Counted from the stretch's first letter, positions 23,095 through 42,858 are shown. The stretch: DNA of 64,000 bases from Amoebophrya sp. A120 (GCA_905178155.1 CAJINV010000005.1:8409591-8473590); one strand, 5' to 3'. Notes: generated by a model from the sequence alone, not told the origin. Program-made: numbers and translations.

Positions 23095-26000
23095 ATGGCA
23101 AGAACATCAAAAGTACTCCTTCATCAAATGCGCGGAGGTCCTCTAGTTGTGCAGTTTCTAGTCGTCCTGCTGGCGCATGGTGATCTGATTCCTGCCGTGC
23201 GAGGGTATTTCTTATTGGATCTGAAAGGTACTAGCGGCGGCGGGCCTGGCCACGAAGAACAACAAGTCGATGTGGATCATGAACTACAAGACCCTATCAA
23301 ATGCAAAAATGTCTGGGTCTGGAAGAATGCAAGTTGTGATGCTGCATTTGGATGTCTAAAAAATTTATGTTGCATGAGCAGCAAAAGGAGTCTAATTTTT
23401 GCTACGCCGAGATGGCATTTGTTTTTGTCATGCGGAATAGGCATCAAGAATCGCACAAAAAACCTGTGATGCTAGGGCATGCATCACAGACGTCATGGCC
23501 CATGCAAACCGTGCATGACAAGTCTCGGAATCTTCCAGACCCAGACATTTTTGCATTGGATAGACCCGACTCCCGAGCCCGTTCCCGGAATGACTTTCTG
23601 CGGCATCGCGGGGTGGGACTTGTATCGCAAGAAAAAAGTGTTACAGTTACACACATAGTCTATGCAGGCCAAGCAAGACAGACGCGCTCTGTCATGCCGG
23701 ATATGCATTGGAGCCTCGTTTCATAGGTGTTTTCCCGTATGATTTCTGCATTACAAGTTTTCTCTCTCATGCAGAGGAGTTTGTGTTGCTGAATTCACTA
23801 CAAATGTGTAACTGTAACACTTTTTTCGTGGGATAATTTGCCCGCGAGCGGCAGTAGTACCTCCGTAGAACGAGCGGCTTCGTCTCCCTTTCTTTCTTCC
23901 GGGGCGGGAACGACTAGCAGAATGGACAAATGTACAACTGGAGCCCTTGTTCCAGATGACGAAAATCAAACGGGCGGGGACGATTATGATCAACAAGGCG
24001 GCACTACGGAGATTTTGAACTGGTTTTGGAACTGGGGGACTACCGTGCTGGCCAAGAAGCCGCCCAGGCCTGGTATTATAACCCGCTCAGGTGTTACAAT
24101 CTCAAACGTTACGAATAGAGTTTGGAGATCTGTGATGCAAGAGTGCATGATCTAGCCAAAGCCAACTCTCATGGGATTGCGCATGACAAGTTCCGGAGCG
24201 CCGACCCCCACTACAACCTGGCGAAATTTGTATTGCAACAAGTGGAACGCTCTGCGAGTCTGTCATGCATGCTCATCATGCAAGACAAATCTCAGACTCT
24301 ATTGCAACGCTTGAGATCGTAATACCTGAGCGGGTTATACCTTTTCCCGCCGACTGGTCCTTTTTCCCGACCAGCTGGGGCACAGACCTTTCCGGCCCGC
24401 ATGACTCGACCGTGCGCGACCCGGCGGGTCAGGGCTACTACGGGAACTTATGGTTCGGTTGGAACGAACCAGACTTAGTTTCGGGAACTGGATCATTGGG
24501 TCACTACGTCCCCGAGCTGGCTGCGGACCCAACTTGCAAAATGACGGAGTGGAAGGCTTTGCACAACCAGGCCCGGACGCTCGGCTACTTGACCACGAGC
24601 CCAGCGATCGCTTTTGATTGGAATTTATCCACCGCAGACATGTCTGGGTCTCCTGGAAGAAATCCTGGAACTTGTGATGCTAAGTCAGGATCGCATACAA
24701 AAGCTGTGGTGCATGAACTACGCCAACAGCTCCCTATATACTTTTTTGCTACACGAATGGCCGCCGATTTCGGGTGCGGGATAGGCACGAAGAAGATCCT
24801 GCCACAAAATCTCTCATGCTTCTGCGTGCATGGTCGAGAGCATTTGTGTGCCTCACGAGATGCATGACAAACACGCGCGTTTTTCTTTCAGGCCGAGATC
24901 GGTATTTGCAAGGCATAGAAATGGCTTCGCACGTTCCTGGCCGAAGCCTGCAAACCGGAAAACGAGGCGACCATGTGTGTATCAAATGTAAAAATGTCTG
25001 GGTCTGGAAGAAGGCAAGTTTGTCATGCGTGTCTGGCATGACTCGAGAATCTGTGTTGCATAGGCACGAAAAGGCCCTCTTACCTGTCATGCAAAAACGC
25101 AGTTCGTCATGCGGAATACGTAAGACATGGGAGCCAAAAAATTTGTCATGCATAGCTGCGTATTGCAGTCCGTCTACCATTCACTTTTAGCATCACAAGT
25201 TTCCAGACCCAGACACTTTTGCATTTGATAGTGTCCCAACTACATCAATTTTCACTTCTACATCTCGGACTGCAACCGCGAGGCTAGCGCGGTGGACTAC
25301 CTGAAGACAGTATCAGAATGAAAAATCCCCCCACCCCATACTCAAACTGGAAACTTGTGATGCTGATTTGTGACCACAAATCATGTTGTCATGCTAGAAG
25401 GGAAATAAGGATGCGGACTGTCGCGCTGGCTGGCCTAGGAACAAGGCCTTGCATCTCCAGCATGGCAGGAGGCAACTGGAAGTGGGAAACAGCATGACCA
25501 ATTGCCTGCAAATAAGGCCAAAACTGCGTCCCTTGCCCTTCTAGCAATACAGGCAGACTTGTGTACGCAAATCCGGCATCACAGCTTTCCTGTCCGATAT
25601 GGGAAGGGGCGGCTTTTTCTCACAATAAACGGGGTTAATGAACGCCAAAGAGTTGATGAACACGTACCCGTATCAAATGCAAATATGTCTGTGCTGTCTG
25701 GGTCTGGAAGGTGGTAACTTGTGATGCTGTCTTTGGATTCCGAAAAAATCTGTATTACATGACTAGCACGTGCGCGAGGAGTCCAGTCTGTGCTACGCGG
25801 GGAGGGCATTTCTTATGCGGAATAAGTATCAGGAAGGCGGTTCTAAAAATCTGTGATGCTAGGGCATAAAAAATTTAAAAGTGGACCTTCCTAAGCCGAT
25901 ATCCTGAGGACAAATGTCCCCACGTCGTCGACCCCATAGTCAGGAGGGGAACCTTGCAACACAAATCCAGAATTTTAGGGAGTCATGCATAACATAGTAT

Positions 26001-29000
26001 AGTCGTGGTTAGCTAGTGCAGCCGCATCAGAAGTCGATAAAGTATGGCAAGTCTCCAAACAGGGCTAGACAATGGCTCTATTGGTGAGCTGTGCGACGAG
26101 GCATATTTTGAGCACGCGCATTGTTCGCATGACAATAAGCATTGGGTCGCGGGGACGTTTCTGCACAGGATGGCCGAGTTTCGTCTATCAGAGTTCCAAA
26201 ATCGATCTCAAGGGTCTCCTGCAGCAGCCAGAGAAAAACGTGGCTGACAAGGACGAGCGTCGTTCTGCTGGAGCGGAAGCGAACGCCGAGGAAAACAAAC
26301 CGCCAACCACGTCAAGGCAGGAGCCGGTGCAGCATCGCAGTGCGGTGGCGGATTTGCTGACCAAAGTACTGCTGGAACAAGGGACCCCCGACGGGCCCAC
26401 CAAAAAGCAAGATTTTCGCGGTCAGGAAGAGGAGAAGGAACAAGAACAGGGAACTTCTAGGAGGGCGACTGATAATAATGCTTGGTACAACAGAAGTAGT
26501 ACTACTAGCAGCGACGACACCTATGATAGTCAGCCGCGGCAGGGGCAGTTTCCGCCCTCTTCTGCCGCAACAGCGACCCGGCCTCCGCTATCACGAGAAA
26601 AAATCCCCCCTCCCCATATGAAAAGGAAGTTTCTGATGCTGGATTTGCGTATACAAATCAGGTTTATTGTCTTGCAGTAGAGGACAGCAGGCTCCTGCCA
26701 AGCCTGAGTAGAGAGCTTTTGGCACTTAGCATGAGAAACGTGTATGCTGTAGGCCCAACAGAATCATAAACCGCCTGCATAATGCGGCAGAGCCTGCGGA
26801 GTTGCCTTCTTGCAAGACAGACGTGATTTGTGGTCTCAGCCCATACCTTTTCGATATGGGGAGGGGGGATTTTTCCTCTCAATATCCGCCTCCAGCTGTC
26901 CGCAAGAATTTGCAGGACATCTTCGGACTTCGAGAAAATGGAGATGCAAAGTACGGTCGGGATTTTCTTGTTAAAAACAACCGTGGCAGTGGTACCAACC
27001 AAAACAATTTATGTTTCCAGAACCCACCTGCGCAGAGTTGTCGTTCCTGTGCCGGTCGTGAGGATCAAAATGAAATGCAAGGCAACAACTTTTTCCGTGA
27101 CTATTATGTGGACGCGTGGCTGCAGTACGAAGACGCTTGGGACGAGTTCGAGAAGGAAGTTATGAAATGCAAATATGTCTGGGTCTGGAAGATTCTAAAC
27201 TTGTGATGCTGTCTCTGGATTCTAAAAAAAATTGCATTGCATGACCAGCAAGAGGACTCCAGTTTCTGCCACGCGGAGAGGACATTTCTCGTGCGGTAGA
27301 GGCATCACAAAGCCCTCGAAAAAGCTGTGATGCTAGAGCATGCATCAGAGCAGACATCATGGGCCATTCAGAATATGCATGACAAGCCTGGCAATCCCGC
27401 AGACCCAGACATTTTTGCATTTGATAGAAGTGAGTGGCAAACAACAGCAAATCCGGCTTCTCAGCGACATCCCGTTTCCGCCCGGACACACGAATCCGCG
27501 GACATCGCTGCTGACCCGCGCCACGAACCAGATTTCAGCGAAGGATGCTTATTACAAACTGGTGCTCCGGTACCACCCGGACAAGTTTCTGCCGAAGTTT
27601 GGACATCGGGTTTATTGTGGCGCCCCAACTGGTCTTCATCCAAGCGAAAGCGAGAAGGATGATATTAATGCAGAGAACAATCTGGAAAGAGAAATTGTGA
27701 AAAAAATCGAACAGATTTGCCATCGTTTGAACCAAGAATGGAAAGGAAAACATCACCTCGTCCAGGGTAAGAATTGTACGTAGATGCGATCCAGGGGAAA
27801 GACCTTCGTGAAATACAAGGACTTCGCTTCGTAGTAATGGCTCCACCTCCGAAAATTAGAGGTGAAAGAAGGACGCCTTCATGTAATTTGTAGAGATTGA
27901 ATATGAGGAATTCCTCCTTGTATAGTAGTGCGTGATAAACATGATCGTTCTTGTTCGGAGATATTATTCGTTGCAATATTCGTTTTTATTCGTGGTCGTG
28001 GAGTAAAGGCAAAGTGAAAGTTCGTTTTTGTTGTGGTAAAAAAGAATCACAGCCATTCCGTATATATATGCGCCACGCTTTCGCGCGGCCACCCTGTATC
28101 TATCCGTACCACGTGCAGAAATCCCCATGGATCCCACCGTGCTGGAGCCACGACAGCACAAGTCGTTACCTCGCAGGACTCCCCAAGTCGTAGTGAAGTC
28201 ATCGTCCGTTCCGGTCGTTTTCAGCTACTTTCGTTCATGCTCACGACCACACCGTGCAAAAAGCAGCTCGCTTGCCTGAACTTTTCTCGAATACACAGTA
28301 CTATCGATTGAATGTTATAAGTTAAGTGCGCCTGCTTGGGGTTCTGTTGCAAGTGCGACATTACCCTGATGAAAAAACAGTATCAATAGCTGCAGTTCCC
28401 AACATTTTTTTTCTGTGTGCGAGAGGCTCATGGAAGCCACTCAGTGAAACTTAAGTAAGTAGTAGACCTTTTTACCGACACAAAAACAGTTCTTCCGGCA
28501 GGAACGGAAAGGGACAAAGTAAAAACGATACTAGTAGAACCGCCAAAATGATGAAGAAGATCGCGCTGATCGCCTTTGCTGCCCCCGGGGGGGGGGCGGT
28601 CGTGTCCGCCCTGCAGAAGAAGGCCGGCACAGCAACACACTCCTGGGAGGGAAGCGAGGAGGTGCCGACCGGTTTCATTCAGCATGACCGGAAGAAAGGC
28701 GGAGCGACAAAGGTGGAAGCCAAGAAAAGCGGGAAAAAATCGAAAACCAGCCGCAAATCGAAGACCGGGAAGATGAGTACAACGTTTGGCGGTTCCAAAA
28801 AATCTGACGAGGATATTATCACGAGAAAAATCTGTCTCAGTCTCACTTTCTAATGCGGACGCTCCTTTGTCACGCTGCAGCTGCACATGCGAGAAAGGCG
28901 GCTTTCATATGTGTGGTTTTCTCTTGTGTCCGGCGCATCACACTCAAACTCATGACTGTTGAGTCTGCAAAGGTTTGAGACGGAGAAAGCTTTTTGTTCC

Positions 29001-32000
29001 TTGCATAGATTACGGCCCGTGGGGTTGGCTGACCGACAAAGCAGGGAGTGGCGGGGCAGCGTTGAAGAAGTTGATCTCGAAGTGGCAAGGCTCTTCGGCA
29101 GCAGGTATGCGCTGCAAATATGTCTTGGTCTTCAAGGTTGCAACTTGTGTCTGCGGCCTGTAAGTAGATCGTGCAAAAGTTTGTCTTTCGGAGGTAGCAC
29201 AGGATGCCCTTTTTCGGTCATGCTGAAGCCGTAAGCTCTAGGCGGACTATGTATTGTAAAGTCCTTTATTACAAAAATGATAACTACTCCCGCCGGCTTG
29301 GGCTTTCCAGTAGACCTGGTGAGGCATCTAAAATCTGCATGGCAATAAACACGTGGACAACTCATCCAGACCACTCAGACGTATTTTCAACACTTGATAT
29401 CTAACAAATACGAACGTCAATTGGACACCTACCTAGAAAATTTGGGCGATCCCAGTATTAGGAGAAGTGGGGATCAGTTCTGTCGTGGCCGCCATTGGTA
29501 TCGTTACCGCCATTGGGCAGAAAAATACAAAACCGAAAATCCTGACGCCAGCGATACGGAACTGAAGCTGTATGTCTTTCGTCGGTGGATGGGACGACAC
29601 TACCCCCAACTCCGCGGCCGTACGTTTCCGAATCACGCACCCAGCTCAAGAATCACGCACCTGAATCACGCACCCACGCACCTCAGAAGCAGCGCACTGA
29701 GTTCGGTGATGTTTATCCATTCAAATAGTTAGGAACACACTACGCAATGAAGCACGCACCCGCCCAGGGCAGCGCGCCTCACCTCGGCGCACCTGGCGCG
29801 CGCGCACCCACAGCGCGCACCTTTTGGGTGCGTGCGGTGGGTACGTGATTCTAGGTGCGTGATTTCTGGGTGCGTGATCTCGAGGGTACTGGATTTCATG
29901 TACTGGGTGCGTGATCTCGAGGGTCTGGGTGCGTGTGTGATTTCATGTCCCATCTCGAGCGATTGGAACTACCAGACGAGGAGACCGAGGAACTGAGCGA
30001 AGCCGAGACGGAGGGCCTAGCGACCGAGGATGCCAGCGAAGCGGCCGTGGCGAGCGAAGCGGCCGTGGCAGGCTCGCGGGCCGCGCAGCTGGCGGAAGTG
30101 GCAGCATTTGCCGTTGCTTAAACTCTTTGCTGCACATGGAGGTACTCGTCCGTGACTTTTTCTACTTTGCTTTCCTCAGTTTTGGCGCATGACAAAGATC
30201 TGTTGTTGATCGCAGTCCTCACAGCAGCGCAGGCTAAGTACTCACTTCTGATTCACGTGTTTTCTGCAAGACGGGTAGAGCGCAAGCGGCACGCGAGATG
30301 CTAATTATGATGCTGCTTGGTTCCAAAAAGAAGCTAGACACTAGCGGCAAATCAAGTTCTTAGATATGTCCTTCAGCACTCGCGGGATTAGGTTCTTTGC
30401 ACGTAGTGGACGCATTAAGAGGAGCGTCCGACCGAGAGCACTACCGCGGTCGGTTGCCGCTGCGGTGCGCGAATTTGTCGACCTCGCTCCCTCAACATGA
30501 GGAACGATAGGGCGTTATTGAGCAGCAAAGAAACAGTGAGTGCGTCCTGGACATGAGTGCTACAGACAGTTTGCTTCGCCTCCTTCATGTGCCCAAACCC
30601 AGTGCTTGACAACACCCATCATTAGCAGCGTTGCTTGATAGGATCCATCTTTCGCAGCGTACCTAGTGCTACGCTGTGATTGCTGTGACTGCTAGTTTTT
30701 TGCTTTTGTGGAAAGTAAATTTATTATGTCGTGTACTCACTCAATTGTTCATGATGTTCTGCTTATGAATAACCCAATTCAACAACTGATCCATCACTTT
30801 CAGGCACGCGCACGGCCGCACCAGAGCGGGGCGATGCGGTTCAATGGGTTAACGGGTTTTGAAGTTTTTCTTTCTCGGGTTTAGGAAATCTGTACTGAGT
30901 TATTTTCTTTTCATCTTCCTACGAGTTTAGTTCTTAAACAGCAACAGCAGCAGCAAGACTTCTTTTCGACAGTTTAATGCACATTGTTCCATAACAGGTT
31001 ATCAATTTAGTTCTCGGGTATCAAGTAGCTTCAGCGCCTTCATTTTATTCATCTACACGTCAGAGAAAGTAATTGCATTTCGCAGCAACGGAGTTTGTTG
31101 TTTTTGATTTTTCAACTAGCATTAAAAGACGTTTCACACGCGTTCTCACGTTCCGCATGACAACAATCAAAGTCAAACAAACAAATAATTACTCAAATCG
31201 TTTCGCATCATAATAACTTTATTGCCCATCATCTCTCTGTCACGGACCTGCTAAATCTTTATCTTTCATCCCTGAGAAGAACTGCATAGCCTGCAGCAAA
31301 TGTGGTCTATCCGTTTTTTCCTATCTGGCCTGCGTGCGTCGCAGGTAACACACATCAGTTTTGGATCGAAATGCCTACCCGTGATAGCATTATTTTCACA
31401 GTCCTTCATGCAAGAACCTTGCAGCAAGATGTTTTAGCAGCTTCTTCTTTTTTTTTTAGTTGGTTTGGAGTGCATCCTTTTTATACTAGCGTTTTCGGCA
31501 GAGCTCTCCCACGGGACGTCTTATGCTCTCCGCCTCCGGGTGTTGAGAACGAGCAGCCTCTTAAACTCCAAGAAACATGAGCTGCAATAGTTGTACGTCG
31601 TAGCATCAACTGAGGAAGCGCATGCTCAATAGTACTGCTGTGCACTAGATAAAAGCTTTAGTGTAAAAGGTAAGAAACGACTTCAGAGCTTCACCGTCCG
31701 GAGAAAAGACGAAGGATAGGGAATAAACGGCCAAATAAGGGGCGTTGCAGTTTTATCCAAATTGCAATCTTAGGATCAGTGTGAACATCTTGTTGGACCT
31801 GTTGGAATTTGCTAATATATTTTACCTATTGGAAAAACGCAAAAAAATTACGTACTAGGGCATTGCCTAAATTAAAAAATTTAAATTTTAAAGTTACGAA
31901 GGTGGGATCCTCAGTAAACGGTGGAGACTTTGTTCTATGTGGTCGTTTTGCACATGAGAGGTAACATGTGCAAAGAAAATTATACCAAACTTTACATGAG

Positions 32001-34370
32001 TCAGGTCTTAGTCAAGTAAATAAGCTTCTCGCTGTACCGACCGCCCCTCGTCGTGCTTCGTTGCGTTTTTTCAAAATAGAGCCTCTAGAAATAAACTCAG
32101 AAGCAAAGCAAAACGTACGAGGGAAAAAAAAGTTACAAATTGCGTTGCGTGACTTCTACAGCCCGACTACAAAAATAGTTTCTAGCTGCCCGACCGCGCC
32201 TCATCATAGTTCGTTTCGTATCGAAAGCACGTAAAACAGATGAAAAGCAGTTCGTGAAATGAAAGGCTTTCGTGGTGCTGTACGTCTTCAACAAAACTTT
32301 CCAAAAGTCGGTTCGTAATTCAAAAAAGAAAAGTCGGCTCGTCCACGTGTGGTTTCTTCGTTTAGGTGCTTTGTCTCGCTGTGTTGCTATACAGCGTCGG
32401 CCTATGACCCTACCCCCTCGGGGGTACGGACATACGGACGATCTTTTATGCACTTCGGATTGGGATTGACGACGGTTCCCGATCGCCGTTGACTGTGAGC
32501 TAGCACCCACGGTGAGTCTTCGGCTTGACCAGACGGGTTCCGTGCGAGCACCCTCTACGATTCCCAGCCCCTTTTCGCCCTTGGTCTGGGGTGGCTGGAT
32601 TCGAGTCATGGAGGGACCCCGTGTGGCAGAAGTCCCTCCCCTCCGTTGCTGCTGCGCGTAGGCTCGTATCGTATCGTTCTACTCTCGTGAACTCGTAGAT
32701 CTACGTACAGGATGACTCCTTTTCAAGACTTGTTTCCCCGGAAGCAGTCTACGTTTTGTCAACTCGCTCTGAGCTACTTATTATAACCTTGAAAGATTAC
32801 TTCTCACTCTTAAGCTCTCACTTTTTTGAGTTTTAGTAGGGCTTTTCAGCCAAAAAGGGACGGACTGCCCTTAGATCTCCGATGTGATGCTAGGGCATAC
32901 ATCACAGACAGTCATGGGCCATGCAAAATATGCATGACAAACGTGGCAAAAATCTTCTAGCCCCAGACATATTCGCAATGCATAGCCCGCGCTTGCGTGG
33001 CGCCCTCTTGACGGAAACGGGAATGATCCCCATCAAGGGGCCGCACACCTGTCCGGTGGAAACGATAAAGGCAGGCATGGATCACATCTTCGAGGTTTTG
33101 CACGATCCGCAGTATTTATCAAACCGATGAATGACGTGAGGAACTCCGCCTGCGGCTCTCCCCCAGTTGAACAAAGGTGCATGAGCCAAATGCATGAGCC
33201 CAGTTGAAGAACAAGTGCATGAGCCCATTTTTACAGCTTGAAGTCGAAAGTGCATGCAGCCCCAGCTGCATAACGACTTCACCATACCAGCTGGTTTCGT
33301 TTGAGCTAATATTCTGGATGGACTTGTCATGCGATTGTATCTGCCGAACGGGCCCGGGATGGCAAAATTGGCATTTTACATCGCAAATGAGGGGGAGCAG
33401 GGGAGAATACTTCTTGCCCGCCGCTCTCATACTGTTACAGCAATGGGAAGCGCGTGGTGCAGCATGTGTCGTGGTTCAATTTTTTCTCCGACGGCGATAT
33501 CCCACACTAGAGAAAAAGTAGAATGTATCAGCACATTTATAAATGCAAAAATAGAAGATAAAGAAATGAAAACTTTCACAGCAAGTAGAAGATCTGCATA
33601 TTACTTAACATTATTACCTGAAACAGCACGGCATGGCCGTGCCCACGACACCAGGCAGAAGATTTAGCTGTGGATGTGTTTTTGCATTACAAAGCTGGTT
33701 CTCGCGGCTTTTTCCTTTTTCTCTGGGATAGGCCATAGCACGACATCTGGTATCAAATGCAAAAATGTCTGGGTCTGGAAGAGTCGGGACTTGCCATGCA
33801 CATTTTGCATGACCCGTGAGGCCTGTGATGCTGGTGCTAGCATCACAGATTTTTTGCGAGCTTCTTGATGCTAATTACGCATGAGAAATGCCCTCTCCGC
33901 GTGCCAAGAGCTGACTCCTCTTGCTGCTCATGCAACACAGATATTTTTAGAATCCGCAGACAGCATTACAAGTTGCATTCTTCCAGACCCAGACATTTTT
34001 ACATTTGATATCTGGATTCGACATGCGATTGGTCGACGGAGAGGGCAATTTGACGATGTTGGGACGCGAGTACATGTATCAAATGCAAATATCTCTGGGT
34101 CTGGAAACTTGTAATGCTAAAAGTGGATGATAAGCGGGCTGCAATACGCAGCCAAGCATGACAAATTTCTGAGCTGCTATGTGTTACGTATTCCGCACGA
34201 GAAACTGCGTTTTTGCATGACAGATAGGAGAGCCTTTTCCGATGCCCCTATGCATCACAGATTGTCGAATCATGTCAGACATGTATGACAAATGTGAGAA
34301 TCTTCCAGACCCAGACATATTTGCAATCCATAACACGTCCGAGGGAAAATGTAAAGAAGTGGAAAAGTAG
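23095..34370 (+). CDS. GH128-like (Glyco_hydro_cc) glycoside hydrolase, copy 1; ~12 exons including a 7.3-kb intron
   Basis: The reconstructed protein has a hydrophobic N-terminus, WFWNWG, FFPTSWG, GWNEPD (acid/base Glu), TTSPA, CPNYINFHFY, TYP|RLRGALLTETG (nucleophile Glu), VSWF and GNLTMLGREY, and stops at 34370. It is colinear with the paralogue at 35936-42858. Confidence 0.8.
23295..23562. mobile_element. Introner family A
   Basis: Family A TIRs; TSD gaccc. Confidence 0.93.
23623..23835. mobile_element. Introner family G
   Basis: TIRs tatcgcaagaaaaaagtgttacagttacac / gtgtaactgtaacacttttttcgtgggata; TSD acttg/atttg. Confidence 0.88.
24077..24339. mobile_element. Introner family F, no clean TSD
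   Basis: TIRs tataacccgctcagg / cctgagcgggttata. The flanks ggtat and ccttt do not match. Confidence 0.85.
24626..24917. mobile_element. Introner family A, diverged
   Basis: Degenerate family A TIRs; TSD gaatt/gaaat; removal restores WNWLRTFL. Confidence 0.8.
24980..25230. mobile_element. Introner family A
   Basis: Family A TIRs; TSD gtgtg/gtgtc. Confidence 0.92.
25311..25627. mobile_element. Introner family D
   Basis: Similar to 19964-20283; TSD gacag/aacgg; removal restores YLKTGLMNAK. Confidence 0.85.
26589..26884. mobile_element. Introner family D (inside the captured gene)
   Basis: Family D TIRs; TSD tccgc. Confidence 0.9.
27161..27426. mobile_element. Introner family A (inside the captured gene)
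   Basis: Family A TIRs; TSD gaagt. Confidence 0.93.
29630..29945. repeat. Inverted array of (AAT)CACGCACC / GGTGCGTG(ATT) motifs
   Basis: Several cacgcacc copies at 29630-29760 face several ggtgcgtg copies at 29826-29940. Confidence 0.75.
33498..33730. mobile_element. Introner, diverged (G-like)
   Basis: TIRs tatccca..gagaaaa / ttttctctgggata; TSD ggcga/ggcca. Confidence 0.7.
33751..34010. mobile_element. Introner family A
   Basis: Family A TIRs; TSD tctgg. Confidence 0.93.
34077..34332. mobile_element. Introner family A
   Basis: Family A TIRs; TSD acatg/acacg. Confidence 0.9.
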
Positions 34371-35935
34371 TAACTTCTGATGACTAAACGGTCAAGAATT
34401 GAAATTACGACCTGGTTTCCGATCGCGAACTCCGAATGTCAAATTATATAGTACAGAGTAGGATTTTTGTGCTAGGTCCAGCACGAGGCGCTCGTGTTTC
34501 TGTCTTTGACATCAACAAACGTATCTATGAAATAAAGCGGAAACAGAAGTAGAGATGTAGCAGTAGTTATGCCAAAAGATGATGATGAGACTTGCACATG
34601 GACCGGGAGTTGTACCCGCCCTCGTGTGCTTTTGTTTTGAAAACTATAATATGTTTATGTTGAACTGGGCCGTGACTCACAGCTACAGTGAAGCACAGTT
34701 GTCAGTTTCGGATAGTTGTACACCACTTTTACAACTTGAACTTTGTAGGTTTTTCATGACAACTCTAACTCACTGCAGGGGATATTTTTCCAACAAGGGT
34801 GCGAAATGCTTCAACGAATACGTAATGCCGCGTGAACTACACAACTTGAACTTGCAAATGCAATGGTTGACGTGGTGGTTAGGATTGCCTGACCGCTACG
34901 CTGAGCCCGTCTCATGTGACTGGGTCACGTGGGCCGACATCGCTGATCTCTGATCTGAGGAGAAGAATTGAACGCAGCTAATTTAAAGCAGAAGCGGCGG
35001 CGGCAGCTGCAGTGGCCCTGTGTCGAATGGAGCTGCATCACATTCGGGAAAATTTTTGTGACGCGCTGTGAGCGGCTGCGGCGAAAGTGGCAGTTTTTCC
35101 AATAGCGGAAGGTTACACGGCCTCTCGGTTCATCTGCCAGAAATGTCTTGCGCCTGTTCAATTCTGGATGCATGGAAACAAGACACGCTCATGAAGTCAG
35201 ATCACGATCCTGAATAGACGTATGACGATCCTCTTCCACCGTCGGTAAAAAGGAAAGTCGAGGCGTTCAAGATGGAGATCATCGAGATCCATAGAATTGT
35301 CAATCTAAACCAGCACAGCAAGAAGATCATCAAACCCAAACCGGGTCTACTTCACTTGATCAATCGATGACCCTCCGCTAAAGAAAACAAAAGCGGAAAG
35401 AACAAGAAGCAACTCGAAGCAAAGTCATCGGTCTGGTCGTCGTCTGCCACGTCCTCTACCAGTAGGTGGACATACAAGAACATATTCGAGGCCGACACTA
35501 TTTGTCTGTTTATCTTGTTTTGCGAAGCACCACACGACCCAAAGTCACTTGGAAAGTATAGTATTATGAAAGAACAGAAGCCGATTTGCGAAAAGCAAAC
35601 TCTTGTTTATTTGTTGAAGTAGAAGTATCGCGTCTGCACACCTCTACTTACACGACTTTGAGTCAAACAAAAACCACTGTAAATCTTTCGACAAAATCTT
35701 CGCACACACGCAAAACAACTCACACCAAAGTACTTACTAAAAAAAAGTCCGCTACTTCTTCAACACTCACCAACCACTTTGGAAGCTAGCTTCTCCTTCT
35801 GTTGCATTTCAACAAGGAGTTGTATTTCGACCGACGTAAGTTTCATTACGATTCTGGAAATAATAAACAATTTTCTTCCGAAACTACAAACAGTACTTCT
35901 GTACACCTCTTCAAGAAAGAACGATTGCAAAGAAG

Positions 35936-38900
35936 ATGCCGGTTCATTTTATGAACAAGAAGCGCCAGGCGGCTGCCGGCGCAGCTGCAGTCACGACTTT
36001 TGCAGGAGCTGCCTCGTTGTTGGCTATTGAACCTGTGCAGGGCCTTATCGTACGAAAAAAGTGTTTCACTGTAAGGATTTTGCAAGTTTTGCATGACAAG
36101 TTTGTTCTACACCAGAGAGAAAATTTGCCATGCGAGATTCCTAAGGGAAAACACAGCTAAAAATCCACTGTCTTGCATGTGTAGCAAGACAAACACTTCT
36201 CAGATACATTTTCTGCATTACAAGTTTACAGTGAAACAGTTTTTTCTTGCGATAGCCCTGTCGTGGCTTGATATGAACGCCGACCTCCGGGAGCAGCCGT
36301 CGACCACTTTATTTCTGAAGAACCAAAAGGGTGATAAAAATGCTGCCCCCAGTACAACGAATGTTGCCGCTGCCGTTTCTGGGGCAACAACAGCAACAAC
36401 TCTTAAGGACGACCCGCAGCCCCCGAAGATCACGATGAGCTATTGCGGCATTGCGGGGGACACTCCGGACCAGACGAAGAAGCGGGGAAATTGGTACGAT
36501 GTACTGAATATGCATGGTAAGTACTTCGCCTGGGTCTGGATTTGTGATGCGAGTCTCGTATGCGAGGGAGATCTCTATTGCAGGATGAGGATCTGCTTTC
36601 AGCTTCCTTTTTTGTTGTGTTCTTGGATGAAGCAGGCAGTTTGTCTATGCGATTTACGAAGCCGAATCAACAAGAAACCTCGTAAAACAACTTGTCATGC
36701 AGCCGTGCTGCCGTACTAAAGAGGCCGTTGCATGATCATCATGGTACAACTAGATGACTCAGCGTCGTGTTTTTGTGATGTATAACGGCCACGACGGGAA
36801 AAGTGAACTGGTGGTGGAACTGGAAGCTGGACGCGGACCGGAATCTCTACCCACAGCAAATTTGTTTCCTTCTTGCACGTACGAATGCGAGAATATTGAA
36901 TGCGGTTTCTGCATGACAAAACTTTCCTTCGACCCTATCTGGCATGACAAATATTTATGCGTCTAAAGAAAAAGGTGGCGAAATTTGTGATGCATTTTCG
37001 TTTACGAGGACCGACGTGCAGTGCTAGTGTACAACTATGCGGGGAAAAATCTAAATTTGTGTTGCATAACCTCCCGGATGACTGGCTTTTCGTCCCGAAC
37101 AGCTGGGGCCAGGACTCGCCGAAACACGGCCCGAGCACGGACCACCATATGGCGTTCTCAACTGTTACATTCTCAACTGTTGCGCGGATTTGTCATGCAA
37201 AATTGCCAGCAGTTTCCACTTGATCAAGGTCTATTTGTCGGGAGGGTTTTTGCATCGCGACCAATGTCGAAGCTTGGGCTCCAGGGGGAATATGGTCTTA
37301 GAGCAGTTCCGACATTTCTCATTTTGCGTTGTCTCACATGCGACGCTTCATCCAAAAATCACACTAAAAACAGATGGAGGAAGGACGGCGCGCGGCTTTC
37401 GCCACGCGCTGCCCTTCCTCGCGCCAACCCGGGACGAGGAGTGTTGAAGAGTGTTCTCTACCCGGATAATCGCGATAAGCAGCCTGTACCTGGAGACTGG
37501 TTGATACGCATGTCGCTCTCGGTGTGTTCTCGGAGCGCGTCCTCTCTGCTCGGAAATGCCGTTCAAGTTACGCGACGCGCTTTTTCTTCTCGGTCAAATG
37601 TAGTACTTGGTCCACTCGGAGCGCCGTATGTTCTGTTGCTGCTCGTGTCCTACACGGAGGTGCTGCGGTTGTACAAGGCCTCGTCAAGCAGCACTATCAG
37701 GAGTGCCAGCCATCGAATCGAGATGACCATGCTTTTACTAGGAGGAACGGCAACAACGTGCGGACACCGACGACGACCAGACTCGGAACTACCATGAATC
37801 GGTGGCGCAATACGGAAGTAGCTACGGACGAAGGGGCTTGAGAGGTAAAGGGGATTGCCGGCTACCCTCAATAGGTAAGTTCCGTCGCGACTCCGGCTTA
37901 CGACCCCCGTCCCCCCTCCCACCCTTTGCTTCTGTTGCAGAATAAGTCAAGGGCTGCACTAAGACCGCCACGCACAATCTAATCCTTTAAGTTGTCGCTG
38001 TGCCCCAGGTGGGTTGCCAGTCAGCAGTGACAAACAACTGGCCAATGGTTTGACATCTCCGGTCCGCGGCACTTGCCTTTTTCGTCCGTGCCGCAGGTAA
38101 GGCACAAATGGTCCAGCCTCCCCTGTCTGGGTGGGGTTGCGGCTTAAGGGAGAGTCTCGCCCCTTAGCCCAAAGGGGTACGTCGTCTCTTCCGTGAGAAC
38201 AAAAACTTATGGCGTAAAATGGGTCGGGTCCTGGATCGTTCTGTATGCTGGGCTGTCGCGCTCGGCTAGCTGGCCGGGCTGTACTGATCAGGTGTGGTGG
38301 GTAGCTCCCGACTGGTTGGCACTTCTATTGGGGCGACTTGCCGTGGTAGCGCTCGGCTTTTGTATGTGGAGGTCGCCGAAAGTGCTTCCTCGCCCACCCC
38401 CCGGGGAGGGGATCCTTGACCTGTGGCGCTGGGTGCGGGTGTCCACTACATGATGATGATGATGATGAAGGTGCTTAGCATGACAAATTTTCGAAGGGCT
38501 AAACAGTGCGATAATCTGTGACAAATCTGTGATGCGAAAGCTGCAATATTGCCACTTTCACTGTTATTGTTCTTGCATTACAAATCCATGTAACAGTTGA
38601 GAATGTAACGTTTGAGAACGCCATACACCAGGACGGCATGTTCGGGGGGTGGCAGTACGCCCCGATGTGGCAGGGATGGAACGAACCAGACCAGGCGGGG
38701 ATCTGCTATGAAGAACTGCTCAAACGTCACAATCTCAAATCGGTTACCATAGAATCTTCTGGGTTTTGTTGTATTGCATGATGAGCATGACAGACTCAGA
38801 CAGCATTCCACTTTCTGCAATACAAACTTCGCCAGCTTATAGTGCGGATTGGGACCACGACCACTCCAGAACTTGTCATGCGCAATCCTATGAAATTTGC

Positions 38901-41900
38901 CGAAATGATGCACTTTTTGCAACACAAATTCCAGACTCTATTGCAACGTTTGAGATCATTGTAACACCTGAGCAGGTTATATCTGCGTGTCGGACCCGGG
39001 AATCGTGTGCGAGGGGGACGTATCCTGTGCAAAAGTATCGTACTCGTATTGCAGTCATGCATTACAAATTTTTTTCTCAAGGTAAAACAGCATTACAAAT
39101 TTTATTTCTCATGCTGAGGGAATTTGTCATGCATTTATACGAATACAATACTTTTGCAGTTCATAGGACGACTTGATGAAGCCTTCCTGTCTATTGTGAG
39201 GAAAAACGTCCCCACCCCAGAGTCAAGATGGAGACTTTGCAAGACAAACCTAGAAGTTTTGCGAGTCACGCATGACAAGTTGCAGGCTGTATTGCAGTGC
39301 AGTTTAGCAAGAGAATCCGCATAAAAGATCCATCTCCTCATCCTGTCTACAGCATTACAAGTCTCAAAACACACTTGGAAGTGCCTCTCTTGGGGATGCG
39401 CATCACAAATGCTCCTGTGCTTGCTAATGTGCATGACAATTCTGGTGTGGGGACATTTTTACTCAGGATACTGTCCGTTCTGCCAGTCCGCGTCGGGACT
39501 GGGGTGGTGGAACAGAACCATCCGGGAAGTGCCCACGGACCAAGCCCAGGTCGTCACCCCCTGGCAGCAAAACGCGATCACGGCCAAGGGCATGGGCTAC
39601 GAAACCACGAGCCCCCAGATTGCTTCCAAGATCAAGGAGTGGCTGCAACCGTTTTTGGGCGCCGTTTGCCAGAACCCCATGACGTGCCCCGACTGGATTA
39701 ACTTCCACTTCTACATTATGGAAGTGTCAGAATCGAAATTTACAAAATCGAAAAATTTGTGATGCGCAAAATCGATGTCAGTTGGAGCCTCAGTTTCCAA
39801 GTGGCGCATGACAAATTTGGGCAGCACCCAAATCCAGTCTGTCATGCTGTTTAGGCAAAGAAGACTGCTCCCGTCATGCTACTCTGGCAGCGTATTGCCT
39901 ACCCCTAAACAGGCTTGCAATGGGTCTCATTTTCCTGCTCCGCAATACAGGTTATCAGTGCCTTACATTTTGCGCATCACAAATTATTTCGATTTTGTCG
40001 ATTTCGATCCTGACACATCCATATACATTATGGGCTGCACCACCGATGTCACTGGGCTGCAGGAAAAGTTGCAGGAGGTGCTTGACGTGGTGAAGCTCTA
40101 CCCTTTATCATTTGCAAATATGTCTGGGTCTGGAACAAGATTGAAACTTGTGATGCTGTCTTTGGATTCTATTTCTACTACATAAAATCTGTATTGCATG
40201 AACTGCAAAAGGGGTCCAGTTTTCGCGACGCGGAGAGGGAATTTCTCATGCGGTAAGGGTATCAGGAAGCATTTACAAAATCTGTGATGCTAGAGTATGC
40301 ATGACAGACATCATGGGTGGTCATCCAAAATATGCATGACAGACGTTGAATTCTTCCAGACCCAGACATGTTTGCAATGCATACCCTTCCATCAAGGGCG
40401 CGCTGCTCACCGAAGTGGGTTTGTTGCAAAGCCACCCGGGAGAGACGTGTGACGGGAATACCATCCAAAAGGCCATGACCAACATGTTTCAGGCCCTGGA
40501 CGAGGTGAAGATGCCCAACGACCCTGCGAAACCCTTGGTGCAGTATATCTTATGCATTGCAAAAATGTCTGGGTCTGGAAGAGAGCAAGTTTGTCATGCA
40601 TATTTTGAATGACCCATGATGTCTGTGATGCATGCTCTAGCATCACAGATTTTCCGAGAGCTTTGTGATGCCTCTACCGCATGAGAAATGTCCTCTCCGC
40701 GTAGCACAAACTGGAGTCCTCTTGCTGGTCATGCAATACACTTGTTTTTGGAATTGAGACACAGCATCACAAGTTTAGAATCTTCCAGACCCAGACATTT
40801 TTACATTTGATATATCTCCTGGTTTAACAAGATCAACACCGGCAAGAGTTTCGACCTGAGTCTGGTGGAGGCGGGGACGGGGATATCAAAAGGAAAAATC
40901 TCCCCTCTCCATCAAATTCAAATTCAAATTGTGTTCACTGGCTGGCTGTGGGTGGTGGTTGGCGGTGGCCTCTTATCATGTGGCTCGATAGAACGGTGGC
41001 CTCTTATCATGTGGCTCGATAGTTCACGACGCTTAGTGCATCGCGAGACTCTACCCTGGGCTAACGTTCTCAATCCCGAGGGGAGTCACGGTAAGAAAAT
41101 TCTCGCTAGGGTCTTAGGGGCACAAATTGGATAGCGTTTCACTCGCCCAGACCGAAGCTATTTCTAACTACGAGCCAACTCGGGTTTCTTCTCGCAGTGA
41201 ACCTCACATCAACATCACTGCCACCCAGCTGGGAGCCGCCGCTTCGTCTAGCCGTCGGCAACTGGCCCACGGCCAATCTGCTAGACGCGCGCTGTCTTCC
41301 CGGCCCCACTGGGGCAGTTACGTGCCCCTGCTACTTACGCGGACGCGATCTGGCGCCGCTGCCGCAACGTCCGGATGCGTTCGACGTCGGCCGACGGGTT
41401 CGCGATGAGCTCCGCCCGTGCCTCTACCGCCGCCTCGACCGCCTCCTCTGCCGTAGCGTAGAGCTCCGGATGGATCGTGCGGGAGAGCGGGTAGGGCTCC
41501 TCCTCCCCCGGGACCTTAACCCTCGCACGCGCAACGAGCTTGCCCCGGGGCGCGTCGTACGTGACCCCGACCGGCAGGGCCTTGCTTGCCCCCTGGAACT
41601 CCAGCGCCTGCTTGACCCTTGGCGGATCCTCGGTGTGCTTTTTGCGCTCCAGCGGCTTCTGCGCGGAGGGCTGCACGGCCTCTGGCTGGGGGAAGCAGGC
41701 GCGGAACCTCGCCTCTGTCTCCCGCTGCTGGATCTTGCGCATGTGCACAAACGCAAGGCGCAGCGACCCGAGCCTCTTCGGCGGCAACCGTGGCTCCGGC
41801 CGGCATTCGTCGCAACTGCACTCAATGCCGGTAACCCGCCAGTCGTAGTCGCGCGGAGACAGGTCGCCCTGGAGGTACAGGTCGGCAGCAGCCAGTGTAG

Positions 41901-42858
41901 GCGAGACCACAAAACACGGAAAGTCTAACACCTCCCGAACTATCGAAGCGTACTGCTGCTGCACATCGTCGCAGGGGGGCGCCGGCCTGTCGATGATGTC
42001 AGCGATGCGCTGCGTCCCTACAAAGTCCAGGAGCCGTGACAGGGTGGTCGGGTTGCCGTCTTTGTCCTTCTCGCCGACACTCGCCAGCGCGGCGTCTTTG
42101 ACCTCTTTGCAAACATCAATGTCGCCATCCTCGATCTGCGTCGCCGGCCACCGACCTGCGCCGGAGCGCACACTGGGCATGGCGGCAATGCAGCTCGTGG
42201 GCTAGAACGTCGGCTGTACCCGGGTCGGGCGAGAGGTCTTGCTGCTGCAGAGGGCGGCAGTCGTAATGGGACTCCAGCCCCACCGAACGCGCGGGTGACG
42301 GTGCCAGGGTGCTGCGGAAGTCGCACGCCGGGGCCCCCTTGCAGCCAGCGGTATGGCGTGAGAAGGTCGGCCTCGACATCTGCCAGAGCGGATGTGAGCT
42401 GCCGCCCACCATTCGTCCAGGGAATCCCCGCGGACGATTGCGTGTCGTACCACGTCCGGAACGAGCGCAGGTCCGCGCGCGGGGACTGACCGATGTTTCT
42501 GATGCTGGATTTGCGTACACAAACCAGATTTGTCTTGCTGGAGAGGCCTGCAGACCCAAATCAAGCCTGAGTAGAGAGGCTTTGGCCTAGGCGCTTAGCA
42601 TGAAAAGCGTCTGTGCTGTAGTCGCAACAGCATGACAAACCGCCTGCAAAGTGCGGCGGTTGTCTGTGGAGTTGCCTTCTTGCAAGACAGACGCGATTTG
42701 TGGTCGCAAATCAGCAAGATAAATTTTCGAAAACGTGCCCTGTCAATATGGGGAGGGGGGATCTTTCCTCGCGATAGGGCAACGTAACGGATTTGGGCCG
42801 GGTGTACGCGGGCTTGTGCAGTAAAAAGCAGGAATATATGAACAGCGTTTCAAAATAA
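35936..42858 (+). CDS. GH128-like (Glyco_hydro_cc) glycoside hydrolase, copy 2; ~12 exons
   Basis: The reconstructed protein has a signal-like N-terminus, YCGIAG, WWWNWK, FVPNSWG, GWNEPD, TTSPQ, CPDWINFHFY|IMGC, LYP|SIKGALLTEVG, YI|SWFN and G|NVTDLGRVY, and stops at 42858. Confidence 0.85.
36046..36254. mobile_element. Introner family G
   Basis: TIRs tatcgtacgaaaaaagtgtttcactgtaa / ttacagtgaaacagtttttcttgcgata; TSD ggcct/gccct. Confidence 0.88.
36509..36784. mobile_element. Degenerate family A-like introner (approximate bounds)
   Basis: A ctgggtctgga remnant and tgtnatgc motifs interrupt GH128 between YDVLN and TATTGKVNWWWNW; no clean TSD. Confidence 0.55.
36848..37068. mobile_element. Diverged introner (family J)
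   Basis: TSD atctc/acctc; removal restores RNL|PDDWLF; weak TIR. Confidence 0.7.
37148..38625. mobile_element. Introner family H, expanded by a nested insertion
   Basis: TIRs tatggcgttctcaactgttacattctcaactgtt / aacagttgagaatgtaacgtttgagaacgccata; TSD cacca; removal restores TDH|QDGMF. Confidence 0.92.
37231..38468 (+). mobile_element. Probable 5'-truncated non-LTR retroelement with a (TGA)6 tail
   Basis: Tail tgatgatgatgatgatga at 38451-38468. Candidate TSD tgat(c/g)aaggt at 37221-37230 and 38463-38472. The open frame to 37797 is followed by a UTR-like segment. Confidence 0.5.
38707..38981. mobile_element. Introner family F (reverse orientation relative to 46688)
   Basis: Family F right TIR; TSD tctgc. 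Confidence 0.9.
39021..39165. mobile_element. Introner family E
   Basis: Family E TIRs; TSD ggacg. Confidence 0.92.
39192..39470. mobile_element. Introner family C (reverse orientation relative to 8158)
   Basis: Family C TIRs; TSD ctgtc. Confidence 0.92.
39717..40023. mobile_element. Introner family I
   Basis: TIRs tatggaagtgtcagaatcgaaat / atttcgatcctgacacatccata; TSD tacat. Confidence 0.92.
40106..40383. mobile_element. Introner family A
   Basis: Family A TIRs; TSD ccctt. Confidence 0.93.
40551..40812. mobile_element. Introner family A
   Basis: Family A TIRs; TSD tatct. Confidence 0.93.
40884..42776. mobile_element. Introner family D, expanded by a nested insertion
   Basis: Family D TIRs; TSD gggga/gggca. 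The segment 42495-42776 matches the intact member at 26589-26884. Confidence 0.9.
40913..42494 (-). mobile_element. GC-rich LINE-like 3' fragment encoding a C-terminal AP2-like domain
   Basis: Minus-strand ORF 41335..42180 ends LPVGVTYDAPRGKLVARARV...YATAEEAVEAAVEARAEL. An (AATTTG)3-type tail lies at ~40913-40930 on the minus strand. Confidence 0.55.

What the first reader, a model, noticed from the sequence alone, without database searches (positions are those of the whole stretch)
25671..32984. 7-kb mosaic of captured genomic DNA inside an introner, between the two catalytic halves of a GH128 gene
Seen: a family A introner is split with a 17-bp duplication (tgtgatgctagggcata, 25852-25868 and 32883-32899). 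Joining across it gives NTYP|RLRGALLTETG, matching the paralogue's KLYP|SIKGALLTEVG, and the downstream exons remain open. The cargo includes a truncated introner, an NFKBIL1-like gene with its own introners, and other fragments. Inference: because the cargo retains introners, it was captured from DNA or unspliced RNA. The long TSD and lack of TIRs or poly-A fit no standard class, so this may be an undescribed cargo-carrying element. It also implies TIR-guided splicing over 7.3 kb past nested TIRs of the same family.
Basis: partly seen in the sequence, partly recalled or inferred. Interest (0 to 1): 0.85.

Follow-up and report, generated by a model that had tools for sequence, protein, structure and literature searches.

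The report
Introner-targeting insertion spliced across 7.3 kb
A 7-kb insertion sits inside one of the transposon-like introns of a marine parasite's likely sugar-cutting gene: it is likely a 1-kb mobile element that lands on a motif found mostly in such introns plus 6 kb of copied chromosome, and one low-depth RNA contig joins the exons across the whole 7.3 kb, so these odd introns likely act as shelters for large insertions.

Summary
The core observation holds. A family A introner is split by a 7,014-bp insert with an exact 17-bp duplication, and the host frame is open across it. One RNA-type contig (depth 2, 15-nt upstream anchor) joins 25666 to 32986, and the same run bridges the right junction. 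So the 7.3-kb splice has direct but thin support.

The 'truncated introner' is complete, and the insert starts within a few bases of mid-exon sequence of a 5'-truncated gene. The right end is not featureless: two other loci share its last ~30 nt, each followed by the introner motif TGT-N-ATGC. The left junction recurs 1 kb from the right end.

Best reading: a ~1-kb non-coding, motif-targeting element with a long duplication, plus ~6 kb of genomic DNA captured at its left junction. It is probably not a cargo-carrying unit. The element's class is unresolved: TPRT-type is favoured, Helitron- or Penelope-type are rivals. The left junction was not seen bridged by reads. New variant of a known kind; interest 0.65.

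The parts
23095..25670 (+). Host GH128-like gene, 5' half: 7 exons, signal-peptide-like start, WNEPD motif
   Evidence: Open frame after removing six introners; PF11790 E 0.053, below cut-off
25671..25868 (+). Left half of the split family A introner; its 5-bp duplication is 25666-25670 / 32985-32989
   Evidence: Alignment with 13 family A copies; TIR/TSD scan
25852..25868 (+). Left copy of the 17-bp duplication (the 17th base could come from the junction filler, so 16-17 bp)
25859..25879 (+). Left-junction scar: last 10 nt of the duplication plus first 11 nt of the insert; recurs at 31855-31885 with 10 extra nt
   Evidence: 0 of 300 shuffles reach the score; the 11-mer occurs only at 25869 and 31875 in the window
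25869..27783 (+). Cargo gene 1: 5'-truncated, 354 open codons from the first base of the insert, DnaJ-like C-terminus; lacks about 268 N-terminal residues of the A25 relative
   Evidence: named A120 protein P0004 is 100% identical over 145 aa, P0001 on a contig of different length is 89.7%
25900..26172 (+).
   Evidence: Both TIRs and a 5/5 duplication; removal keeps the frame
26589..26884 (+). Family B introner in cargo gene 1
27161..27426 (+). Nested family A introner in cargo gene 1; its right TIR pairs better in silico with the outer left TIR than the outer right TIR does
   Evidence: duplex -42.4 against -32.8 kcal/mol; its own pair -47.6
28548..30121 (+). Cargo gene 2: complete, 249 codons, three introns (about 28815-29010, 29106-29401, 29618-29949), no known family
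   Evidence: Open frame; X3 record 11 lies in two pieces, 29479-29617 and 29950-30089, with no differences; no informative Pfam hit
30122..31854 (.). Non-coding remainder of the cargo
   Evidence: Longest stop-free frame on + is 96 codons; sites where reads differ from the window stop at 31816
31855..32882 (.). Candidate ~1.0-kb non-coding mobile element E; left limit inferred from the repeated scar
   Evidence: One unbranched contig 31781-32883 at the depth of host exons in X1 and X2 (25.5 vs 26.2; 41.7 vs 44.5); no Rfam family at gathering level
32854..32882 (.). Conserved right terminus of E, shared by two other loci that differ on both sides and continue into TGT-N-ATGC
   Evidence: Loose ends before 32854/32856 and behind 32890/32891 in both DNA-type runs
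32883..32984 (+). Right half of the split family A introner, beginning with the right copy of the duplication (32883-32899)
25667..32985 (+). The 7,319-nt intron as removed in RNA (the joint can slide 4 nt to 25671-32989)
   Evidence: X6 record 23: 130 nt on 32986-33115 plus 15 loose letters equal to 25652-25666, unique in the window
32986..34372 (+). Host GH128-like gene, 3' half: LTETG motif, four further introns, stop at 34372
   Evidence: joint 33114 to 33435 seen in X4
35951..40883 (+). Tandem GH128-like paralogue used as comparator; has a family A introner one base away from the same codon

Best explanation
The insert is likely two things joined at this site: a ~1-kb non-coding mobile element that likely integrates by a staggered, target-primed cut at a motif found mostly in introners, and ~6 kb of intron-containing chromosome likely copied in at its left junction by template switching; one RNA contig joins the host exons across all 7.3 kb, so the host introner likely still marks the splice. 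Steps. (1) Shown: the last ~30 nt of the insert recur at two other loci, each followed by TGT-N-ATGC. Inferred: the element's enzyme, or its annealing end, picks this motif and a second nick 16-17 nt away makes the duplication, as in target-primed reverse transcription. (2) Shown: the left junction recurs, with 10 extra nt, at 31855. Inferred: the cargo was added here, during or after step 1, by microhomology-mediated template switches onto genomic DNA, which keeps introns. (3) Shown in one contig: exon 25666 is joined to 32986. Inferred: the outer TIRs still define the intron, after or around removal of six nested introns. (4) Inferred: because the insertion lands inside an intron it is nearly neutral, so introners work as safe harbours and can host whole duplicated genes.
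For: Exact 17-bp duplication and a normal-length rejoined introner. Shared terminus at 2 other loci in both DNA-type runs, with 35-36 nt matched and one differing letter each. The motif has 164 of 185 window hits inside 56 introner intervals, 12.2 against 0.41 per kb. No loose end at 32883-32889 was listed, which random targets would give (13 of 14 loose ends shown). The left end is mid-exon, as for a 5'-truncated or template-switched end. The 9-mer at 31855 occurs elsewhere in the window only in family A introners. Sites where reads differ from the window run from 26384 to 31816 and none is listed in 31817-32882. A second A120 copy of cargo gene 1 is on record (P0001). Spliced junction and retained-intron contigs occur in the same run. 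E and host exons have the same depth, so an empty allele or a second host gene is at most minor in that DNA sample. A tailed insertion with a 10-bp near-duplication sits in an introner of the paralogue. R2-type enzymes prime without homology and jump templates by microhomology (PMC13586686, passages).
Against: No poly(A) or repeat tail and no coding remnant in E, so no enzyme is identified. The two other termini are seen only as ~30-nt matches; contigs are laid only if they match, which favours copies that also match the target. The position of the differing letter was not printed. The splice rests on one contig at depth 2 with a 15-nt anchor. X3 shows no depth on the upstream exon bin 24376-24769 while it covers the 3' exons with the right half retained. 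The left junction was not seen bridged. The middle of the cargo (29180-29676, 29849-30571) has single-copy depth and no differences, so no close donor is visible for it. The scar at 31855 was found after the fact; 8 of 150 random window 33-mers scored as high against the whole insert, which holds introners. On the minus strand E reads A|TC...CTAG|T, as a Helitron would. X1 and X2 may be the reads behind the assembly and are one sample.
Confidence: 0.5

Rival explanations
1. Helitron-like read-through. E is a non-autonomous rolling-circle element on the minus strand whose weak 3' terminator was bypassed, so 6 kb of flanking DNA travelled with it as one unit.
For: On the minus strand E begins TC after a host A and has CTAG followed by T at 31855. 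The conserved ~30 nt would be the essential 5' end. DNA copying keeps introns. Terminator bypass is shown for Helraiser (PMC4778049, passages).
Against: Helitrons make no target duplication, and here there are 16-17 bp. No GC-rich hairpin lies ~11 nt before the CTAG (-3.3 kcal/mol); 24 CTRR-T sites occur on that strand of the insert. The CTAG is part of a 9-mer that matches this target. No second close copy of E next to a donor is seen.
Confidence: 0.17
2. Retro-transduction of an unspliced or antisense RNA, Penelope-like. A source copy of E lay downstream of gene 2, and a 7-kb unspliced transcript was reverse-transcribed as one piece and truncated in gene 1.
For: Precise right end, truncated left end, long duplication, co-oriented cargo. 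Penelope elements have moved intron-containing genes and carry 30-40 nt tails (PMC3846280, PMC8557442, passages).
Against: No second pLTR or inverted copy in the insert. No hammerhead by Rfam or pattern. No close source copy of E. The published case is pLTR-framed with an 8-bp duplication. The target-like 9-mer at 31855 is not explained.
Confidence: 0.15
3. One-off repair of a staggered break with copied genomic DNA and no element. The shared 30 nt would be the end of a short repeat that happened to be at the end of the copied piece.
For: No TIR, LTR, tail or ORF. The left junction looks like microhomology-mediated repair.
Against: 2 of 2 other loci that share the terminus break from the window within 9 nt of the same junction and carry the same target motif. 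The motif follows a random position about 0.14% of the time.
Confidence: 0.09
4. The left junction or part of the cargo is misassembled from a near-identical duplicate, and only E is truly inserted here.
For: Left junction not seen bridged. The reads differ from the window at many cargo sites, some at full depth. The sequence at 31855 resembles what E's own left junction would be.
Against: All 30 bins are covered in X1. The left scar differs from 31855-31885 by a 10-nt gap and lacks the first 7 nt of the duplication there, so it is not a simple overlap. An annotated A120 protein matches cargo gene 1 exactly while a second, 89.7% identical one lies on another contig.
Confidence: 0.07
5. On the splice alone: the 25666-32986 contig comes from cells without the insertion, or from reverse-transcriptase skipping between the 4-nt repeats, and the filled allele is not spliced.
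For: One contig, depth 2. Short direct repeats around a hairpin are the recalled signature of such artefacts. X3 keeps the right half and lacks an upstream exon.
Against: The same run bridges the right junction. E has 94-97% of host-exon depth in the DNA runs. X4 cover starts at 32989, at the exon edge. Both gene halves remain open.
Confidence: 0.2

Closest known systems
Introner elements / non-canonical introns of Amoebophrya sp. A120 (Farhat et al. 2021, PMC7789003)
   Same: TAT-starting inverted repeats, short direct repeats, about 250 nt, no GT-AG; the outer intron here is one of them.
   Different: Expanded about 26-fold by an insertion that holds six further introns and a whole gene. The sections read describe no nested cargo and no element that targets introners. 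The longest annotated A120 intron is 35,152 bp, type not given.
Site-specific non-LTR retrotransposons (R2 clade and relatives; PMC13586686 passages, other members recalled)
   Same: One precise end at a sequence motif, one ragged end, staggered-cut duplication, template jumping.
   Different: No RT or endonuclease remnant and no tail. The target is a dispersed intron motif, not rDNA or a small-RNA gene. The extra DNA is unspliced.
Penelope-like elements moving intron-containing genes (Arkhipova et al. 2013, PMC3846280)
   Same: Intron-retaining gene copy inside a target duplication; short terminal extension.
   Different: No pLTR pair, no palindromic junction, no hammerhead; 16-17 bp against 8-10 bp duplication.
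Helitron 3' transduction (Grabundzija et al. 2016, PMC4778049)
   Same: A|TC and CTAG|T on the minus strand; one conserved end; intron-retaining capture.
   Different: A long duplication is present; no terminator hairpin; target is a 7-of-8 motif rather than AT.
Templated insertions by microhomology-mediated template switching (MMBIR/FoSTeS, theta-type end joining; recalled, no paper read)
   Same: Kilobase genomic copy with a short locally templated filler and imperfect flanking repeat.
   Different: Occurs at the junction of a repeated, motif-targeted element.

Membership tests
Amoebophrya A120-type introner (outer intron) | Inverted repeats starting TAT, with a 3-5 nt direct repeat at the boundaries | tested here: met
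   definition read in PMC7789003 section 11
Amoebophrya A120-type introner (outer intron) | Removed from RNA without GT-AG ends | tested here: met
   One contig, depth 2, 15-nt anchor; thin
Non-LTR retrotransposon (TPRT) | Target duplication with one precise and one variable end | tested here: met
   16-17 bp here; precise right end shared by 2 other loci; duplications of those loci not seen
Non-LTR retrotransposon (TPRT) | Poly(A) or simple-repeat 3' tail | tested here: not met
   Insert ends read directly; no tandem repeat at either end
Non-LTR retrotransposon (TPRT) | RT and endonuclease ORF, or a cognate autonomous partner | tested here: inconclusive
   No ORF with a family hit in E; partner search needs the genome, which is not held
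Penelope-like element | Pseudo-LTRs in tandem or inverted arrangement | tested here: not met
   No repeat of the right 480 nt in the window; end-to-end comparisons at chance level
Penelope-like element | Hammerhead motif (not universal in the group) | tested here: not met
   Rfam scan of 30100-32900 and a core pattern search
Helitron | 5'-TC and CTRR-3' between host A and T | tested here: inconclusive
   Met for E on the minus strand, but the CTAG lies in a target-like 9-mer and 24 such sites exist
Helitron | No target duplication | tested here: not met
   Exact 17-bp repeat
Helitron | Hairpin about 11 nt before the 3' end | tested here: not met
   Only an AT-rich palindrome and a 3-bp stem, -3.3 kcal/mol
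TIR cargo transposon (Pack-MULE type, recalled) | Terminal inverted repeats | tested here: not met
   91% of 300 shuffles score as well
Cargo-carrying mobile unit | The same ends and cargo at more than one site | not testable with these tools
   No genome held; only the right 30 nt seen elsewhere; flanks of the second cargo copy not seen
GH128 glycoside hydrolase (host gene) | PF11790 match and two catalytic glutamates about 100-120 residues apart | tested here: inconclusive
   E 0.053 on one exon, below cut-off; motifs at residues 203 and 321; no PDB sequence hit for that exon

The most novel reading that the evidence does not exclude
An undescribed family of tail-less, TIR-less mobile elements parasitises Amoebophrya's introners by inserting at their shared TGT-N-ATGC motif, carries kilobases of intron-containing chromosome including whole expressed genes, and stays harmless because end-guided non-canonical splicing removes the whole load.
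Probability: 0.2. Interest if true: 0.85.

Novelty: new variant of a known kind. Interest (0 to 1): 0.65.

Why it matters
How Amoebophrya removes its non-canonical introns is open: U1 was not found and no splice motif is shared (PMC7789003, sections 10 and 16). This locus is a natural test of end recognition. The two ends lie 7.3 kb apart, six introns are nested between them, and a nested same-family end pairs better on paper with the outer left end than the true partner does. If the junction is confirmed, intron length and interior do not matter, and ends are matched inside-out or by the flanking 5-bp repeat. Second, an element that aims at a motif about 30 times denser in introners than elsewhere would be a transposon living on introners. 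It would explain how a compact genome tolerates large insertions and how intact genes get duplicated into introns of other genes.

Tried and rejected
No genome is held, so donor loci and other copies could not be searched. Three word-index protein searches with single exons found nothing. The protein atlas gave no result. The right terminus was not found in metagenome or viral contigs. Two raw-read RNA runs with the same species label laid only 4 and 2 reads and are uninformative, probably another strain (X9, X10). No listed holder is on record as RNA; X3, X4 and X6 are taken as RNA because they skip introns. Earlier findings: none by sequence, place or the first word set; three from other genomes by words. 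Rejected: terminal inverted or long direct repeats; a hammerhead or other Rfam family in E (one weak snoRNA hit at 30174, below gathering); strong RNA structure at the right end (z -0.05 and -1.5); a spliced-leader relic (best 15 of 21 with a recalled motif); crossover between two introners (neither flank continues as introner). The right terminus is a weak inverted match to the duplication (top 2% of insert 30-mers); I left it as unexplained. Contig depth was used only to compare E with host exons; it is not a copy number. Literature: no paper on nested or targeted insertions in introners came up. Supplements were not read; Dataset S2 of PMC12130899 and Fig. S4/Table S7 of PMC7789003 may list E's family. 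Roy et al. 2023 (Curr Biol) was seen only as a reference.


Full report
Setting. The window is dense with ~270-bp elements that start TAT, end ATA and carry 5-bp duplications. This matches the introners described for Amoebophrya sp. A120 (PMC7789003, sections 10-12 and 16 read). A named A120 protein is identical to the spliced C-terminus of a cargo gene (P0004), so the organism is most likely that strain.

The observation. The 17-mer is exact at 25852-25868 and 32883-32899. The two halves align end to end with 13 other family A copies and overlap by exactly that 17-mer; none of the others carries it exactly. Rejoined, the copy is 283 bp and 64-78% identical to the others. With all introns removed the host gene is one open frame of 412 codons, 30% identical over 280 residues to the tandem paralogue. 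The two presumed catalytic motifs lie on either side of the insert. GH128 membership is likely but rests on a sub-threshold Pfam hit and one passage on catalytic residues (PMC10956234).

The cargo. The 'truncated introner' is a complete family C copy, 25900-26172. Removing it and two more introners gives 354 open codons from the insert's first base. Homology to the 577-residue A25 relative starts at about its residue 269, so the gene is cut in mid-exon. A second, complete gene follows at 28548-30121, and one of its introns is skipped in an RNA-type contig with no differences. All six cargo introns are retained in the DNA. Reads differ from the window, at some sites with two letters present, between 26384 and 31816, and depth is above host-exon level over much of 25.9-28.8 and 30.5-31.3 kb. 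A second A120 protein 89.7% identical to cargo gene 1 lies on a contig of different length. So close copies exist for much of the cargo. None is visible for 29180-29676 and 29849-30571. Whether the cargo is one donor segment or a mosaic is open.

The right end. In both DNA-type runs one contig covers 31781-32883 at host-exon depth and then breaks. Two other loci share the window's 32854/32856-32890/32891, with one differing letter each, and differ on both sides. That stretch is the last 27-29 nt of the insert plus the first 8-9 nt of the duplication. The contig breaks place one difference most likely at the fourth target base, giving TGT-N-ATGC; the tool did not print the position. This motif has 164 of its 185 window hits inside 56 introner intervals. 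One of the two flanks contains a further copy of the motif. Copies with unrelated targets could be under-detected, but no loose end at 32883-32889 was among the 13 of 14 listed. I read this as a defined element end with a target preference.

The left end. The last 10 nt of the duplication and the first 11 nt of the insert recur at 31855-31885 with 10 extra nt. None of 300 shuffles reached the score against 30122-32882; 8 of 150 random window 33-mers did against the whole, introner-bearing insert. The 11-mer occurs only at these two places, and the 9-mer otherwise only in family A introners. This splits the insert into E (about 31855-32882) and a ~6.0-kb cargo bounded by its own imperfect repeat. 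Target-like letters between cargo and E are easiest to explain if the two were joined at this site.

Splicing. X6 record 23 lies on 32986-33115 and has 15 further letters equal to 25652-25666, a stretch unique in the window. The same run bridges the right junction (record 22), X4 skips the next intron and starts at the exon edge. Against this: it is one contig at depth 2, and X3 keeps the right half in a 929-nt contig and has no depth on an upstream exon. Slow removal of a long intron, or transcription from within E, would give that pattern. On paper the outer left TIR pairs better with the nested family A right end (-42.4) than with its own (-32.8), while the nested pair is strongest (-47.6 kcal/mol). 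Correct joining therefore suggests inside-out pairing or use of the flanking 5-bp repeat; this is inference.

Mechanism. I favour target-primed insertion of E with a 16-17 bp duplication, and capture of genomic DNA at its left junction by template switching (0.5). R2-type enzymes prime without homology and jump templates (PMC13586686, passages); microhomology-mediated templated insertion is recalled, not read. Rivals are Helitron read-through (A|TC and CTAG|T on the minus strand, but a duplication and no hairpin; PMC4778049, passages), Penelope-like transduction of unspliced RNA (no pLTRs; PMC3846280 and PMC8557442, passages), repair without an element, and left-side misassembly. E fails a defining test for each named family, so I file it under none.

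Novelty. Non-canonical introners, ORF-bearing introners and introns up to 35 kb are in print for A120. Intron-retaining gene capture is known for Helitrons and Penelope elements. The searches listed under Tried and rejected found no account of elements that target introners or of cargo genes inside them; supplements were not read. An unchecked earlier report of this scan describes a 13.6-kb hairpin-bounded intron spliced in another dinoflagellate, which agrees with long-range removal but is not evidence. Verdict: real feature, new variant of a known kind, interest 0.65.

Noticed in passing
window 37149-38624: An introner of the GH128 paralogue is 1,476 bp long because of a ~1.24-kb insertion ending in an (ATG)n tail, flanked by a 10-bp near-duplication at 37221 and 38463 (9 of 10). 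It looks like a 5'-truncated LINE-type piece inside an introner.
   Followed up: partly
window 40884-42776: A family B introner expanded to 1,893 bp by an insertion with an intronless minus-strand ORF of about 280 codons (starts 42180) with a weak AP2 hit (E 0.007) and a 31-bp tandem duplication at 40963-41022; no clear target duplication.
   Followed up: partly
window 671-5209: A 4.5-kb element with 129-bp inverted ends (92%) that encloses about 20 copies of a 114-bp GC-rich tandem repeat.
   Followed up: no
window 25671 and 40106: Host gene and paralogue (30% identical) each have a family A introner at the same codon, one base apart; independent insertion or intron sliding.
   Followed up: partly
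window 29618-29949: The third intron of cargo gene 2 is a different repeat type, built of GCACCC-type units in inverted arrangement, without TAT/ATA ends; it is skipped in X3 record 11 and has other copies.
   Followed up: partly
window 28134-28814: RNA-type contigs about 97% alike to exon 1 of cargo gene 2 are deeper than the exact copy and do not match its later exons, suggesting an expressed family with a shared start and variable ends.
   Followed up: no
window 32866-32897: E's right terminus and the target duplication can fold into one hairpin across the junction; significance is borderline.
   Followed up: partly
whole window: Introners of several families share internal TGT-N-ATGC repeats, about 3 per element, which may be part of the splicing or mobility signal.
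   Followed up: partly
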